Made by a program: the position numbers and the translations under genes. Below are positions 9,531 through 64,000 of a stretch of DNA of 64,000 nt, in pieces. The stretch spans positions 806,001 through 870,000 of the forward strand of contig OX597829.1 in the NCBI GenBank assembly GCA_951406725.2, read 5' to 3'. Source of the stretch: Octopus vulgaris. Its lineage: Eukaryota. The notes below the pieces were generated by a model. That model was not told where the DNA came from and ran no database searches. It saw nothing but the letters and a program-made list of their open reading frames with translations. Numbering within the stretch: position 1 is the stretch's first letter; every line of letters starts with the position of its first letter.

Positions 9531-10059
9531 GGTTGTACACCTTAACCGCGTTTTGTCTTCTGTACTTCCATTGAAAAGACCAAACACAGATGTTCACTCA
9601 TCTTTATCAAATATCTGTAACTGCTGTTAATTAAAGCAGGGATAATATTGTGTGCAGCTGTGGAGTGCCTGTCTGCGTATGTCGTCGGTTAAATGGCGGA
9701 AATTGCAAGATTGAATACGGAACTAAACTACGAGATCAGGAGATGACGAGATCAAATCTGCCGCAGGCGTATATTTCTCGTTCCCAGCAACACGCTTAAT
9801 GACGTTCTTAATTCATGGAGGCTGCTTGTCATGAATTGGGATGTCCTGTCCGATCTCCCATGAATGCTACGCTCCGTAAGGAACTTCAAGTAACCTGGAG
9901 AACGTAACATGAAAACAGGAAGCAATTCTCATTGATACTTCCTGCTAAAATATTTTGTTTTGTATATGAAGTATCTATGGATATCCATACACACGTTATA
10001 TGCGGTCAGACGCACGCTTGCATGCACATGTGTATGTGCGTGTGTGTGTGTGTGTGTGT

Positions 10060-13224: not shown

Positions 13225-13295
13225 CAGTGTATGTATGCATAAGTTTTATTCATTAATTTGTTATTACACATATATACATATATAAATATATATAT

Positions 13296-13438
13296 GTTTT
13301 TTGTGTATCTTTCTGTCGAAGAGCGTAGGCTCGAAACGTAAAAGACTTTTTCTATTTCTATTCCTGAGCGCCATACTAATACATTGTTTGTACTCCACCT
13401 GTCTTCGTCTTTTGTTTATTTTCGTAAATTTTCCCTTT
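13296..13438 (+). mobile_element. Short dispersed element with a minimal hammerhead-like motif, copy 1 of 4
   Basis: TCTTT-CTGTCGAA-GAGC GTAG GCTC-GAAACGTA-AAAGA at 13308-13345; homologs at 34098, 40287, 54210. Confidence 0.8.
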
Positions 13439-14048
13439 ATATATATTCGTATATGTAGGTGTGTGTGTGTGTATATATATATATGTGTGCTTGTGAGTTT
13501 ATGTGAGTGTGCGTGTATATATACATACATACATACATACATACATACATACATACATACATGTGTGTGTATATGAGTGTGCGCGTGTTTGTGAGTGTGT
13601 GTATGTGTCTGTGTATTTGATGTAACGTTCGTTGTATTATTACCTTAGTAAAGTAACTTTCAGTAACAACGTCAGAACTTGCAACGTACAAATCGTCTCC
13701 TCTCCTCATCACTCTCTCTATTACTATCTTTCTCTCTCTCTCTCTCTCTCTCTCTGTTCTTCTCTCTTCCCCCTCTCTCTCTCTCTGTTCTTCTCTCTTC
13801 CCCCCCCCCTCTCTCTCTGTTTCATTTGCTTTTGTCCTTCCCGCCTCCGCCGCCTGACACTCCTTTAATGCTGTATATATACTAAGTATAAATACATCAC
13901 CAACACACTTCGTCTCTATATACACTCACATAAAATGTAACTATTATTATTGTTCTGCTGTTCTTTTATTAGGAGAAATAAAGAAGTCGCAGTTTTATTT
14001 ATTCATTTATTTACTTATTTACTTATTTATATAGTTATTAACCCCCCT

Positions 14049-29866: not shown

Positions 29867-31533
29867 CACTACCGTCAGAAATTAATTAGCACCCTTGATT
29901 TGCTCTTCACTCAAGGTATGTGCTGTCACCTAGTGGCCATATCTCGAACTATTGCTTTGTTGTGAGTTCACTGTTGCGCAGAACGATGACGTAACTTTGT
30001 TTGCAGAGCGGTTTGAGAGTCTACAGCCTAATGATGTTGACATAGCAGTGCAACAACAACTTGGAGTGCGGATGCAGACAAATCTTCCTTTGTTTAATAG
30101 ATATAGGTAGCGCCTCGCAAGGACCGAAATCGCACCGTACTAAGTTTTCTCATCGCGTAAGACGTTTTGAACAGCTTGTAGGTTAATTGATTTGTGTATT
30201 TGCAAGATTTTTTTTCCTCACAAATTCTCCTATACTCTGCTTCGTGACGTCACTTCCGGTTCACAAAACATTCTGTTATACATCAAATAAAGTGAGAAAT
30301 TCTGCTTTCTTTCTTTTTTGTTTAATGAATAATAACTCATAGCAGTTTTGTTATAGCATAACATTATTCAAATGAATAGTTTTAATGAAAATAACTGTTT
30401 TTTATCGTTCATTCCTAGATGGGCCCAAGACCTCGCATGACCTTGGAGAGACGGTACGAGGCTCTCTCGTGGCGTGGGAAGCTGTCGGAGGCTGCAATAG
30501 CCAGAAAACTTGGTGTAGCCAGGCGCACAATTCAGTGCTTATTTAAGAAATACGAAGAAACCGGATCAGCAGCTGACAAAAAGGGTAGGGGACAGAAGAG
30601 GCTGACGACCCAGCGGGAGGACCGGATGCTGATCCGAAAGTCGCTGAACAACCGAAGGGCAACGAGCCGGCAACTGGCGGAGGAGATGCAAAAGGTGACA
30701 GGGAAGCAGTTGTCTACAACCACCGTCAAGACCAGATTACTGGAAGCTGGTCTAAAATCCTGTAGGGCCGCCCGTAAGCCGCTCCTTACAGCCCAAAACT
30801 GGAAGAGGCGGCTGCTCTGGGCCCGTGCCCACAAGACATGGACCGTGCAGCAGTGGCGGACAGTGATGTTCACTGACGAGTCGCGATTCAGTCTCGTCAG
30901 TGAATCGCGATGTGCGATGGTGCGATGTGGTCTGATGGTGTGGGGGGGCGTTCAGCTACAGTGGTGTTGGGCGGCTCTATGCCGTCGAAGGCAACATCAA
31001 CGCAGCAAAGTACGTTGAGATAGTACGGAATGCTGCCCTACCCTCTGCGGGATACCTCTTTGGTGGCGAGGAGTACGTGCTCCAGCAGGACAACGCGCCT
31101 CCCCACACAGCCAAGCTCACAACCGGTTTCTTCAAGGAACATAGGGTGACAGTCATGGACTGGCCTGGCCTGGCCTGGCCAGTCACCTGACCTGAACCCT
31201 ATTGAGAACCTCTGGAGTCGATTGGGTAGGGATTTGAATGTGCAGCAATACAGGAACCGACACGAGCTGTTTGGGGCACTTCTTGCTGCATGGAGGATTA
31301 TCCCTGCACAGTACCTGCAGGCGCTCATAGACAGTATGCCGGCCCGCGTAGCAGCTGTCATTGCTGCCAAAGGAGGAGCAACAAGATATTGACTATTATG
31401 TGGTATGCTGGGATATGTTTTAACAAATTTTTGATTAAAAACGAGTTCGTTTCTGATAATAAGTTAATTAAATTAAGAAAATGTAAGAAAACGTAGAAAT
31501 TTGAGAAGTGCTAATTAATTTCTGACGCAAGTG
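29867..31533 (+). mobile_element. Full-length Tc1 transposon with a disrupted transposase
   Basis: 26-bp TIRs CACTACCGTCAGAAATTAATTAGCAC (2 mismatches), TA flanks; coding region 30419-31392 with HTH, VMFTDESRF, QQDNAPPH, SPDLNPIENLW; frameshifts. Confidence 0.95.
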
Positions 31534-34058: not shown

Positions 34059-34097
<39 letters not shown>

Positions 34098-34100
<3 letters not shown>

Positions 34101-34302
34101 CGGGAAGGTTTACGAAAATAAGTAAAAGTCGAAAGCAGGTGGAGTACAAACAAACAAATGTATTAGTATGGCGATGAGGAATAGAAATAGAACAAGTCTT
34201 TTACGTTTCGAGCCTACGCTCTTCGATAGATAGATACACAAAAAAGTAACAAGGAGAGAAACAAGGAGAGAAAAAAATGCGTGTTGGAGCTAACGATCTA
34301 TC
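34098..34302 (-). mobile_element. Hammerhead-like short element, copy 2 of 4
   Basis: Motif 34197-34234, core CTATCGAA. Confidence 0.8.
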
Positions 34303-34619: not shown

Positions 34620-34870
34620 TAAAAAGTGTTGTGTGGAAGATATCACTGGAAGGAGAGGTCATGGTTAATCCAAATAGAGTTTGCGTTCTGAGAGTGAAAA
34701 TGTAACCCTGCTCAAGGCGTAGTCTGGTGTTTGTGGATCCTTTGTGCCAGGCCGAAGTGGTAGGGGTGGAAAATGAGGAGAATGGAGATGCGGTTTGGAG
34801 ACTGGTGTGGAAAAGGAGAGAAGGCCGTAACGCGAGCGGCTCGATGATCATGGGTAAGAGTGGTCTAGAA
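34620..34870 (-). mobile_element. Putative Penelope-like element GIY-YIG C-terminal remnant
   Basis: RLRLEQGYIFTLRTQTLFGL resembles the PLE terminal motif R..EQ..IF.L.T..P.GLN. Confidence 0.45.
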
Positions 34871-35579: not shown

Positions 35580-35732
35580 TATTTAAAGCAGCATAAAATT
35601 CAACAAAATCTGTTACTCTGAGTTTCTCGTTGCCGTTCATCAGCCCGTCGTATTCTAACAAAAACTGTCTGATGAACGGCAACGAGAAACTCAGAGTAAC
35701 AGATTTTGTTGAATTTTCTGCTGCTTTAAATA
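35580..35732. repeat. 64-bp inverted repeat carrying hammerhead cores
   Basis: 35580-35643 vs 35669-35732, one mismatch. Confidence 0.92.
35665..35702 (+). ncRNA. Minimal type I hammerhead fold
   Basis: CTGT-CTGATGA-ACG GCAA CGA-GAA-ACTC A GAGT-A-ACAG. Confidence 0.72.
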
Positions 35733-35860
35733 AAGTATATACATTTATATATATATGTATATATATATATATATATACATATATATTTATATATATATAT
35801 ATATATGTATATATACGTATATATATGTATAAATATGTGTATATATATACATATATTTAC

Positions 35861-35938
<78 letters not shown>

Positions 35939-35939
35939 A

Positions 35940-38350
35940 CACTACTCTCGGATCACAACATGATAGAGCTGACCATGTACGGGCCAAAAGTGAGCACGGA
36001 CATGCAGCCTACAAGAAACCCTCAAAATCTTTCCAGCTTGAACTACCATAAGGCAAACTGGAAACAAATTGAGAAAGAGATCCTCAAACAAAACTGGCCT
36101 AAATGTCTCTCCTCGCCAGACATCGACGTGAAACTTCAACAATTCATGTCTGTAATGCAAGCCATATGCTACAAATGTGTCCCAGAGAGAAAGGCCACTG
36201 TACACAAGAACAAAATCCCCAGAGAGAGGAAAATTTTAATGAGACGGCGTACGAAATTTTCAAATCGCCTAAACAAACAGATTGAAAGCAGTGAAAAGTC
36301 CCGCCTAAAAATAAAACTGTTGGAAATCGAAAAATGTCTGCAACTCTCCCATGAAAAAGAAAGAGCAGACAAAGAAGCCTGGGCTATAGAAAACATAAAA
36401 TCTAACCCCAGAGCTTTCTACAGGTATGCCAAAGAAACAGCTACAGTGCACTGTAGAATAGGGCCACTCCTCGAAAAGGATGGCACACTTACAGGAAAAC
36501 CAATGAGGGTAAATGAAATACTGAATGAGCAATTCAAGAGTGTTTTCACTCCACCCCTTGGGCATCTCCAAATCACCAATCCAACTGACTTTTTTACCAC
36601 TGCAGATATAAAATCAGAGGCGGCGACGATAGATTACATCGATATAAAGGAAGACGATGTAACCAAGGCTATAGATGAAATGAAAACAGACTCAGCTACT
36701 GGCCCCGATGGATTCCCGGCAATCCTCCTAAAAGCATGTAAGAGAGTCCTAGCAAGACCACTGCAGTTCCTCTTTCAGAGCTTCCTTGCAGCTGGCAAAC
36801 TTCCAGGAAAACTGAAGGAAGGTAAAATATGCCCCATTCATAAAGGAGGTAGCAGAGCGGAAGCCAAGAACTATAGACCTATCTCTCTGACCTCACACAT
36901 CAGCAAGGTCATGGAACGAATAGTCAGAAGGAAGCTGATCACCTTCCTTGAAGAGAATGACTTGCTGCCCGACACCCAACATGGTTTCCGACCAGGGAGA
37001 AGCTGTTTAACTCAGCTCCTACAACACTATGACTGGGTGCTGAAACGGCTGCTCAACCACTCAAATGTAGAAGTGATATATCTCGACTTTGCAAAGGCCT
37101 TTGATAAAGTCGATCATGGAATGATGTGTCACAAACTGCGTGATCTCAACATAGTTGGAAAACTGGGAGAATGGCTTCATGACTTTCTGAAGGATAGAAG
37201 TCAGGTGGTAGTAGCCAATGGGGCCACCTCCATTAACACACAAATAGTGAGCGGTGTTCCGCAGGGCACTGTTCTGGGACCACTACTGTTCATAATGGCC
37301 CTCTCAGACATACCCTCAGCCACGCAGAGAGCCACGATCACAAGTTATGCAGATGATACAAAAGTTTCACAGGCAATACAGAACCCTGAGGACACTAAAC
37401 ACCTGCAATGTGAGCTGGACGAAATATACAAGTGGGCTGAAAAGAATAGCATGCAGTTCAATGCTGGAAAGTTTCAAGCTTTATACTATCAGCATGCAAA
37501 ACTGAATGCAATACCCAATGAATACACTGGACCCGGAGGGATTGCAATCCCAGAGGCACAATCAGTGCGTGACCTGGGTATTCACATGAGTGATGACGCG
37601 ACCTTTCATGTACATGTTGCTAAACTGACAATGAAATGTAGACGGCTGGCTGGATGGATTCTTAGAACCTTTAGAACAAGAGAACAAGGAACCATGATGG
37701 TCCTCTGGAAGACACTTGTCCTAAGCCACTTTGACTATTGCTCTCAGTTATGGTCACCATCCAGTGTCAAGTTGATCACAGAACTTGAGGCGATCCAACG
37801 AAGCTACACGAAGAAGATAGCCTCTATGCAGAATGTAAGCTACTGGGAAAGACTCAAGAGATTAAAATTATATTCCCTGGAGCGTAGGCGGGAAAGATAT
37901 GCCATAATATACATCTGGAAGATCCTGGAGGGAAGTGTCCTGAACTTTGGCATCGAGAGTTACGCAAATGCCAGAACTGGGCGCCACTGCGTGGTGCCTA
38001 GGACTCCAAACCTGCCATCAAGATGTAGGACAAGATTCTGTGATAGCCTGGGCTTCCGAGGCCCACAGCTCTTCAATATCCTCCCGAAGAACCTGAGAGA
38101 CCTGCATGGGGTGGATACAGATGTCTTTAAAATGAAGCTGGATCTCTTCCTGTCAGGTGTCCCAGATGAACCAACTTCACAGCAGGAGGGGCAGATGAGG
38201 GCAGCTGCATCGAACTCTCTCATGCACCAAATAGCAGTTGCTAGAAAGCCCCCATGAAGTGAAACCAAGTAGCAACACCAAATGGCGGTGCCCCAGCATG
38301 GCCACAGCTCATAAGCTGAAACTAGAATCAATCAATCAATCAATCAATCA
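35940..38350 (+). mobile_element. 5'-truncated CR1-group LINE with (AATC)n tail
   Basis: Begins at the APE C-terminal SDH motif; complete RT; short 3' UTR. Confidence 0.93.
35942..38257 (+). CDS. LINE ORF2 reverse transcriptase, open frame, endonuclease missing
   Basis: [62 protein letters not shown]. Confidence 0.9.
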
Positions 38351-40174: not shown

Positions 40175-40493
<319 letters not shown>

Positions 40494-40526
40494 ATGGCGT
40501 CCTGACAAGCCCGTCGTATATGTATG

Positions 40527-53938: not shown

Positions 53939-54209
53939 CTCAAAGAAATTACAACTTTGTTTTTTAAGTTTTATTTATATTCTTTATAATATTAATGTAG
54001 AATATAGAATATATAAATATATAGTGTAAATAGTATATATAGTAAAATGAAATGAAGTATTGATTGTCTTATTGAATAGATGAAATGTTGAATATCAAAT
54101 ATTAGGGGATTAGTATATTTTCATGCGTTATAGCAGTCTTCAAGGTCACAGGTTATGACAGGAGTGTCACAACCAGGGACCTTGAAGACTATCTATCTAT
54201 CAGTCACCA

Positions 54210-54411
54210 TGATAGATCGTTACCCTCTACACATTTTTTCTCCTTTTTCTCTCTCTTTTTTTCTCTCCTTGTTTTTTCTGTGTCCCTTTCTGTAGTAGAG
54301 CGTAGGCTCGAAACGTAAAAGACTTTTTCTATTCCTGAGCGTTATACTAATACATCTGTTTGTTTTGTACACCACCTGTCTTCGTCTTTTTTTTTTTTTT
54401 TCGTAAACACC

Positions 54412-54415
<4 letters not shown>
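54210..54415 (+). mobile_element. Hammerhead-like short element, copy 4 of 4
   Basis: Motif 54285-54322, core CTGTAGTA. Confidence 0.8.
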
Positions 54416-54452
<37 letters not shown>

Positions 54453-63431: not shown

Positions 63432-64000
63432 AGAGATGTAAAATCGAGGGTAAGTTTGTAATCGAGGATATTAGTGTATTCCCGTTATATATAATATATA
63501 TATAATAACAAAGGGTAAAATTAATAAATAAAGAAGTAATCAGTAATTTCACCAAGTAGAATTCGGCATGAAAAAGGACCATTTCACGGTAAACTTAAGT
63601 AATACTTTATAATAAGGGTTCAGCAAAGATTTGCTTTACCACATCCCGAAGTTTAGAAATAGCAGCCAAAAAACCTTAGCTATTTCTTTTACTTTAAAAA
63701 GGGACTCCCAGAAAAACACAATACTTGAAAACAATCCATGCAGGCAGAGAGGAAAATTAACGAAAATCAATCTATATCTGATCACCCATGTACACGTTTC
63801 GGAATTAGATCGGTATAAAGAATCTAGAATTATTCTTTACCCGACCATTTTCTTCATCAGCATGGGACTTCAACAATATTAAATATTAAAAATATTAAAT
63901 TCGAAGGCACTGGAAGAATTGAACATATCTCTCCACCGAACGGTATTAGACAGATCATATTCGGTGTTCGCACCGCCGAATTCAAAATATGAATGAGGTT

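What the first reader, a model, noticed from the sequence alone, without database searches (positions are those of the whole stretch)
13308..13345. Four-copy ~200-bp element with an ultra-minimal hammerhead and non-canonical CUGUNGAA core
Consensus TCTTT-CTGTNGAA-GAGC GTAG GCTC-GAA-ACGT-A-AAAGA. Stem II and GAAACGT are identical in all four copies (13308 +, 34197 -, 40387 -, 54285 +). Stem III is only the palindrome ACGU with no loop, so it would need a dimer. All four have U at position 6 (normally invariant A) and one extra nucleotide before stem II, so this is a family trait rather than decay. It may be an undescribed HHR variant.
Basis: partly seen in the sequence, partly recalled or inferred. 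Interest (0 to 1): 0.78.

Follow-up and report, generated by a model that had tools for sequence, protein, structure and literature searches.

The report
Penelope hammerhead with fixed A6U core
The four copies are broken-off ends of a young, very abundant Penelope-like jumping gene whose small hammerhead-shaped RNA motif carries U instead of the normally fixed A at core position 6, so it is likely a slowed-down self-cutting RNA, although cutting has not been tested.

Summary
The motif is real at all four places. The copies are 5'-truncated 3' ends (pLTRs) of an autonomous Neptune-type Penelope-like element (PLE). Full-length copies have a ~1,070-aa RT + GIY-YIG ORF between two pLTRs about 4.5 kb apart, each with the motif; the youngest differ by 0.33%. 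U6 is the family state: 15,954 exact genomic copies have U, 184 A, 430 C/G. Across seven subfamilies only positions 7 and 17 change, the two core positions that hammerheads leave free (0 of 30 constrained columns vary, against 45 of 110 flank columns). The extra A and the loopless ACGU stem III are published traits of PLE minimal hammerheads, so only A6U is new; I found no report of it, but one key paper (Lunse 2017) was not available. Related PLEs keep A6, and the young branch of the sister PLE carries another U-turn change (U4C). Published data say changes here lower activity, and U6 favours an inactive monomer fold. Best reading: an attenuated, dimer-dependent ribozyme (0.5); main rival: a non-cutting fold kept as a cis element (0.3). 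New variant of a known kind.

The parts
13308..13345 (+). Minimal type I hammerhead motif, copy 1 (the only intact one in the window): stem I 5' strand 13308-13312, core C3-A9 13313-13319 with U6 at 13316, extra A 13320, stem II/loop 13321-13332, GAA 13333-13335, palindromic ACGU 13336-13339, A17 13340 (predicted cut after it), stem I 3' strand 13341-13345
   Evidence: sequence; passes relaxed min-HHR descriptor; no Rfam hammerhead match
13297..13446 (+). 5'-truncated 3' end (pLTR) of the Neptune-type PLE, copy 1, flanked by (TA)n
   Evidence: 87% identical over 151 columns to the end of full-length element L109; groups with subfamily Y1
34090..34302 (-). pLTR remnant, copy 2; motif 34234-34197 with U6 but G5A and a stem I mismatch
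40280..40505 (-). pLTR remnant, copy 3; motif 40424-40387 with U6 but G at position 17 and a stem I mismatch
54207..54426 (+). pLTR remnant, copy 4 (subfamily with A7); motif 54285-54322 with U6 but A9U

Best explanation
The motif is the minimal hammerhead of an autonomous Penelope-like retroelement, fixed for U at position 6, and it likely works as a slow, dimer-dependent self-cleaving ribozyme. Shown: it sits in both direct repeats (pLTRs) that flank an intact RT + GIY-YIG ORF, about 4.5 kb apart and in the sense direction; the window holds only truncated 3' ends left in (TA)n runs. Inferred: in a transcript that spans both pLTRs, the two ACGU palindromes would pair to form a shared stem III, and each core would cut after position 17, releasing a unit-length RNA. 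Inferred: U6 would weaken the uridine turn and lets U4-G5-U6 pair with ACG in the single copy, so most RNA would stay uncut, which suits an element whose cDNA has to be copied through the motif (the 3' end of insertions lies about 105 bases past the cut site). The window copies themselves are probably inert: they are lone, and three of four carry core damage.
For: PLE link: (15 of 20 long loci have two sense motifs 4,444-4,580 bases apart, all 30 with U6; 7 of the 15 keep an ATG-to-stop ORF of 1,064-1,080 aa). Recent spread: 0.33% mean difference over 1,772 bases among the 20. U6 fixed: 15,954 U, 184 A, 430 C/G; 65 of 67 usable flank-selected copies. Constraint with a hammerhead signature: among 7 subfamily majorities 0 of 30 constrained motif columns vary against 45 of 110 flank columns; only positions 7 (U, C, G, A) and 17 (A, U) change; from flank-selected copies alone 1 of 34 against 41 of 87. 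C3-G8, G5, A9, G12, A13, A14, A15.1-U16.1 and G10.1-C11.1 are all kept. Precedent for low but real activity: natural A6C, kobs below 0.1 per min, and viroid U4C that still works in vivo (PMC3088659); PLE min-HHR dimers cleave weakly (PMC4209133).
Against: No cleavage was observed. In a complete pairwise mutant scan of one hammerhead, all single and double mutants of the CUGA turn had low activity except the C-G swap (PMC9901934); A6U on top of an already weak min-HHR could mean no useful rate. The double-hammerhead dimer scores -13.9 to -15.9 kcal/mol, worse than two monomers (-17.2 to -21.6) and than the predicted best dimer (-23.6 to -28.0). Loop 2 (GUAG), which catalysis should not fix, is also unchanged in all 7 subfamilies, so the constraint may be on sequence rather than chemistry. 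5' ends of truncated insertions do not pile up at the predicted cut: 4 of 32 begin at it or one base after, 8 upstream, 20 downstream. Many successful PLEs lack hammerheads altogether (PMC8557442). The flanks are pyrimidine-rich and may mutate faster than average, and my subfamilies were seeded by hand.
Confidence: 0.5

Rival explanations
1. The motif no longer cuts. After A6U it is kept as a cis element of the pLTR: a rod-like RNA fold (stem I, U4-G5-U6 paired with ACG, stem II) or dimer handle read by the element's own RT/EN protein, or a DNA signal of the pLTR.
For: Predicted pairing of G5 with C15.2 averages 0.80 in 79 U6 copies, against 0.14 in 29 A6 copies of the same lineage and 0.02 in 7 sister copies; 0.97 in the youngest subfamily. 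Loop 2 is invariant too. The young sister PLE also has a damaged turn (U4C) and a stem I mismatch in both pLTRs of an intact element. CUGA mutants have low activity. No footprint of cutting in insertion ends.
Against: The only columns that changed are the two that catalysis leaves free, and position 17 never became G in any subfamily majority. The rod is weak in one large subfamily (0.23 for G7/U17, 4 copies), so it is not what all subfamilies share. Every catalytic nucleotide is kept.
Confidence: 0.3
2. The U6 ribozyme is about as active as its A6 relatives because something compensates: a tertiary contact between the GUAG loop and the invariant bases just past stem I, or binding of the element's protein.
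For: The U6 lineage has a GUAG tetraloop where the A6 sister families have a triloop, and the five bases after stem I (ACUUU) are the same in all 7 subfamily majorities. Loop-to-stem I contacts are known to offset weak cores (argued in PMC3088659). The lineage is the most numerous min-HHR family I counted.
Against: No second mutation rescued CUGA mutants in the pairwise scan. Published PLE min-HHRs lack recognisable tertiary contacts. The order in which U6 and GUAG arose is not resolved. The contact is my conjecture from recalled structures, not a result.
Confidence: 0.15
3. U6 is a neutral lesion that rode along with a successful master copy; the motif is a dead relic under no constraint.
For: A single founder can fix any base in thousands of copies; PLEs can spread without hammerheads.
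Against: The rest of the motif stayed unchanged through 7 successive subfamilies while about 40-47% of flank columns changed (Fisher P about 1e-6 to 3e-6, columns treated as independent).
Confidence: 0.05

Closest known systems
Minimal hammerheads (min-HHRs) of metazoan Penelope-like elements (Cervera and De la Pena 2014, PMC4209133)
   Same: Type I topology in both pLTRs; short stem I; extra unpaired base between 9 and 10.1; G10.1-C11.1; loopless palindromic 15.2-16.2 (ACGU); thousands of lone truncated copies; dimer needed. Published consensus CUGANGAH ... GAAAN-palindrome-NU H.
   Different: U at position 6. All 44 rows of the part of the published alignment that I read have A6, and the only core change the paper describes is U3-A8. 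Stem II is 4 bp with a GUAG loop, at the short end.
Natural A6C hammerhead of bacteriophage Bcep176, and viroid U4C variant (Perreault et al. 2011, PMC3088659)
   Same: A natural change in the CUGA turn; low but detectable activity (A6C kobs below 0.1 per min).
   Different: Those are single, rare, full-size hammerheads; this is A6U, fixed in about 16,000 exact copies and in both pLTRs of intact young elements, in a minimal dimer-type scaffold.
Neptune clade of endonuclease-bearing PLEs (features as given in Craig et al. 2021, PMC8557442)
   Same: RT followed by C-terminal GIY-YIG with internal CxxC, CX4CxxC linker, DKG motif, partial-tandem pLTR layout, inverted 5' pieces, (TA)n targets.
   Different: Clade placed by motifs only; no tree with reference Neptune and Nematis sequences was built. 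Nearest database proteins are 55-57% identical.

Membership tests
PLE min-HHR | Lies in the pLTRs flanking an RT + GIY-YIG ORF, sense direction | tested here: met
   15 of 20 long loci have the motif on both sides of the ORF, 4.44-4.58 kb apart
PLE min-HHR | Extra nucleotide between 9 and 10.1; G10.1-C11.1 pair | tested here: met
   A in 67 of 67, G10.1 in 66 and C11.1 in 65 of 67 flank-selected copies
PLE min-HHR | Loopless or tiny palindromic stem III | tested here: met
   ACGU in all 7 subfamily majorities; departures are CpG decay
Hammerhead core | C3-G8, U4, G5, A9, G12, A13, A14, A15.1-U16.1 kept; N7 free; 17 not G | tested here: met
   each kept in 64-67 of 67 copies; N7 = U26 A21 C14 G6; 17 = A55 U10 C1 G1
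Hammerhead core | A at position 6 | tested here: not met
   U in 96.3% of 16,568 exact genomic copies, A in 1.1%; so it is a variant descendant, not a consensus member
Hammerhead core | Stems I and II covary across relatives | tested here: met
   stem I C-G becomes G-C in the UUU-loop sister, other stem I and stem II pairs in metagenome and other genomic families; within the U6 lineage the stems do not vary, which says nothing either way
Hammerhead core | Self-cleavage after position 17 (as a dimer) | not testable with these tools
   only assembled contigs were listed for this sequence; insertion ends gave no signal
Rfam hammerhead models | Score against Rfam hammerhead families | tested here: not met
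   no hammerhead family among 3 weak matches in 13280-13400; expected for stem III-less motifs (inference)
Neptune-type PLE | C-terminal GIY-YIG with CX2-5CxxC linker, DKG, (TA)n targeting | tested here: met
   CSRPRCRTC, DKG, YIDD, IIY-CxxC-YIG; RVT_1 E 1e-7, GIY-YIG E 0.0055 below its cut-off; TATATA follows 75 of 90 3' ends
Neptune-type PLE | RT phylogeny with reference clades (Neptune versus Nematis) | not tested
   no named reference sequences were fetched
Non-LTR retrozyme | Short non-coding tandem repeats, each unit with a hammerhead | tested here: not met
   copies are dispersed truncated ends of a coding element; nearest same-strand pairs are kilobases apart

The most novel reading that the evidence does not exclude
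Two sister, currently spreading PLE lineages in one genome have independently fixed different substitutions in the 'invariant' uridine turn of their hammerhead (A6U here, U4C in the sister) while keeping every other catalytic base: selection in PLEs tunes self-cleavage down, or hands part of the active site to the element's own protein, and A6U is a working natural hammerhead core that all CUGA-based searches miss.
Probability: 0.3. Interest if true: 0.72.

Novelty: new variant of a known kind. Interest (0 to 1): 0.52.

Why it matters
Whether PLE hammerheads cut in vivo and what the cut is for is an open question (stated as such in PMC8557442). This family gives a natural experiment: an intact, young, autonomous element with a fixed change at a position regarded as invariant, next to A6 and U4C sister families with the same stem II in the same genome, so matched rate measurements can show how much catalysis a PLE needs. 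It also shows that descriptor searches that require CUGA would miss the most numerous min-HHR family I counted in this genome, and that some PLEs scored as lacking hammerheads may carry such variants.

Tried and rejected
Rfam: whole window (the 150 rows shown of 483 are microsatellite-driven miRNA-type matches below their cut-offs) and the motif alone: no hammerhead match. The repeat finder was swamped by microsatellites. Expression: no RNA holder listed, only assembled contigs; contigs of 4 runs laid on the pLTR end did not list even the known variation at position 7, so that table cannot be used for position 6; raw reads that could show cut ends were not available, so cutting in vivo stays open. 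Order of events: a tree of 60 older and outgroup copies with positions 6 and 7 removed left the A6 copies of the GUAG lineage scattered with weak support, so a basal A6-GUAG branch is neither shown nor excluded; in the oldest subfamily 84 of the first 100 of 1,096 matches have U, 8 C, 7 A, 1 G. A search for unrelated U6 families (673 matches, control 32) gave, in the 100 rows shown, mostly stem II mutants of this lineage and sporadic U6 mutants of a canonical family; no second U6 family. Insertion-end test: no pile-up at the cut. Stand-alone SINE or retrozyme: rejected, the copies are PLE ends. Naiad: rejected, the endonuclease is C-terminal. Literature: 'hammerhead ribozyme'+'A6U'+'catalytic core' 0 papers; 'hammerhead'+'A6U' 1 listed, on twister ribozymes, not opened; CUGUNGA-type words, nothing on point among 20 of 56 listed; octopus+Penelope+hammerhead, 4 listed, none on this. 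Not held: Lunse et al. 2017, Arkhipova et al. 2017, Nelson and Uhlenbeck 2008, Martick and Scott 2006, Scott 2013, Tang and Breaker 1997.

Full report
Observation. Stem II, its GUAG loop and GAAACGT are identical in 4 of 4, all have U at core position 6 and an extra A before stem II. Only copy 1 is otherwise intact; copy 2 has G5A, copy 3 has G17, copy 4 has A9U, and only copy 1 passes a relaxed min-HHR descriptor. Rfam has no match to the motif. The genome (G000, 2.8 Gb; window = C16:806001-870000) looks like an octopus to me from its repeats; that is recall, no call names it.

Census. The 18-base word stem II + GAAACG occurs 19,535 times, the reversed control never. With the core added, 15,954 exact copies have U6, 184 A6 and 430 C6 or G6 (87 C and 13 G in the first 100 rows): 96.3%, 1.1% and 2.6%. 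To avoid choosing copies by the motif, I searched a 19-base word of the 3' flank (21,541 matches) and fetched 90 of the first 100 places. 23 were dropped: 17 truncated inside or past the core, 4 identical to other rows (all U6), 2 with deletions in the motif. Of the 67 left, 65 have U6 and 2 A6.

What the element is. Upstream of longer copies lies the end of an RT (YIDD) and a GIY-YIG endonuclease. A protein search gave 113 scored matches at 92-95% identity, many in long open frames. Of the 20 loci with long frames that I extended, 15 have two sense motifs 4,444-4,580 bases apart in direct repeats that agree at 267-275 of 275 bases; all 30 motifs have U6; 7 of the 15 keep an ATG-to-stop ORF of 1,064-1,080 aa, as does one locus with a single motif. 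The 20 differ by 0.33% on average over 1,772 bases, so the family spread recently. The protein has RVT_1 (E 1e-7) and a weak GIY-YIG match below its cut-off, a CX4CxxC linker, DKG and the CxxC inside GIY-YIG; 75 of 90 3' ends are followed by TATATA. By the features in PMC8557442 (passages) this is a Neptune-type PLE; no reference tree was built. Nearest database proteins are 55-57% identical. The window copies are 5'-truncated ends of this element.

Constraint. I grouped 173 copies of the lineage into 7 hand-seeded subfamilies by flank columns only (within-group divergence 3-13%). Among their majority sequences 0 of 30 constrained motif columns vary, against 45 of 110 flank columns (Fisher P 3e-6); loop 2 does not vary either; the only motif columns that change are 7 (U, C, G, A) and 17 (A, U). 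From flank-selected copies alone the figures are 1 of 34 against 41 of 87 (P 1e-6), the one being a 2:2 tie at position 6 in the oldest group. Caveats: columns are not independent and the flanks are pyrimidine-rich. Still, 7 and 17 are the positions hammerheads leave free, which is the pattern expected if the hammerhead fold or chemistry is what is kept.

U6 is derived. Other min-HHR families in the genome have the canonical core (15,486 matches, control 205). Two sister families share stem II and alignable flanks but have a triloop and A6: 4,488 exact copies, 97 A and 0 U in the first 100 rows (that pattern required U4). In 80 metagenome loci with related PLE proteins 6 min-HHR motifs were found, all A6, none in 5 shuffles (two pairs of the six are near-duplicates). 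Within the oldest U6 subfamily 84 of the first 100 of 1,096 matches have U, 8 C, 7 A, 1 G; the A6 copies are scattered on a poorly supported tree, so when U6 arose relative to the GUAG loop is open. The sister PLE (61% protein identity, intact 1,008-aa frames) carries in both pLTRs of young full-length copies a different change of the turn, U4C, and a mismatch in stem I; I could not count these genome-wide.

What is known. PMC4209133 (main text parts 1-2 of 4; supplement part 2 of 3 and a term search) lists the extra base between 9 and 10.1, G10.1-C11.1 and the palindromic 15.2-16.2 as conserved traits of PLE min-HHRs, reports no cleavage for a monomer and low cleavage for dimers, and gives the consensus CUGANGAH; all 44 rows I read have A6, and no octopus is named. 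PMC3088659 (section 8 and passages) reports a natural A6C with kobs below 0.1 per min and a viroid U4C that still works in vivo. PMC9901934 (passages) found low activity for all CUGA-region mutants except the C-G swap. Also seen: PMC6765202, PMC7229834, PMC6155905, PMC11014351 (passages) and bioRxiv 10.64898/2026.07.22.740005 (parts 1-2 of 5; its supplements are closed); none of the parts seen mentions A6U. Searches for a natural A6U found nothing on point. Lunse et al. 2017, a large survey of such variants, I saw only as a reference-list title; it could hold U6 rows, which is the main risk to novelty.

Mechanism. Shown: position in both pLTRs, fixed U6, retained catalytic bases. Inferred: two motifs of one long transcript pair through ACGU and cut after 17. 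Computed: that double-hammerhead scores -13.9 to -15.9 kcal/mol, worse than two monomers (-17.2 to -21.6) or the best dimer (-23.6 to -28.0), so it would need help. Computed: U6 opens an alternative monomer helix U4-G5-U6/ACG, mean probability 0.80 in 79 U6 copies against 0.14 in 29 A6 copies of the lineage and 0.02 in 7 sister copies, though only 0.23 in the G7/U17 subfamily. Insertions end about 105 bases past the cut site and most run through the motif, and 5' ends do not pile up at the cut (4 of 32 at or one base after it, 8 upstream, 20 downstream, counted by eye). All of this fits a ribozyme that cuts rarely (0.5). It also fits a motif that no longer cuts and serves as a cis element (0.3); full activity by compensation (0.15) and unconstrained relic (0.05) are less likely.

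Verdict. Interest 0.52; the convergent U4C change in the sister element is what would raise it.

Noticed in passing
L429-L435 (e.g. G000:C8:23384000-23393900, motifs at L429:3082 and 9278): Sister PLE, 61% protein identity, intact 1,008-aa frame, pLTRs 6.2 kb apart; young copies have a U4C core (CCGACGA), C17 and a stem I mismatch, older copies the canonical core. L432/L433 hold three units in tandem.
   Followed up: partly
window 63785-63866 (-): A min-HHR-like motif of another family with canonical CUGAUGA, 6-bp stem I, a long stem II region and ACGUGU as stem III; it did not pass my descriptor. A decayed relative lies in L429 near 9620-9690.
   Followed up: partly
L182-L209 (e.g. G000:C1:585829-585862): A further abundant family with canonical core, 5-bp stem II and 10-base loop, often next to (AAT)n; its ORF was not looked for.
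   Followed up: no
window 34642-34752 (-): Weak match (46%, E 7e-4) to the end of a PLE endonuclease, about 340 bases upstream of copy 2 with other repeats between; probably a different PLE.
   Followed up: no
window 35597-38257 (+) and 30419-31018 (+): An 886-residue open frame with LINE-type RT motifs, and a Tc1-like transposase fragment (names from recall of motifs, not scanned).
   Followed up: no
L009/L010, L044, L061:7900-7980: Inverted pLTR pieces next to sense copies, as described for PLE insertions.
   Followed up: no
L102:5900-6330: Public runs under 5 organism codes hold 73-81% of the sampled words of the young 5' pLTR region; in 4 runs contig depth peaks over the hammerhead motif itself, as expected if all subfamilies share it.
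   Followed up: partly
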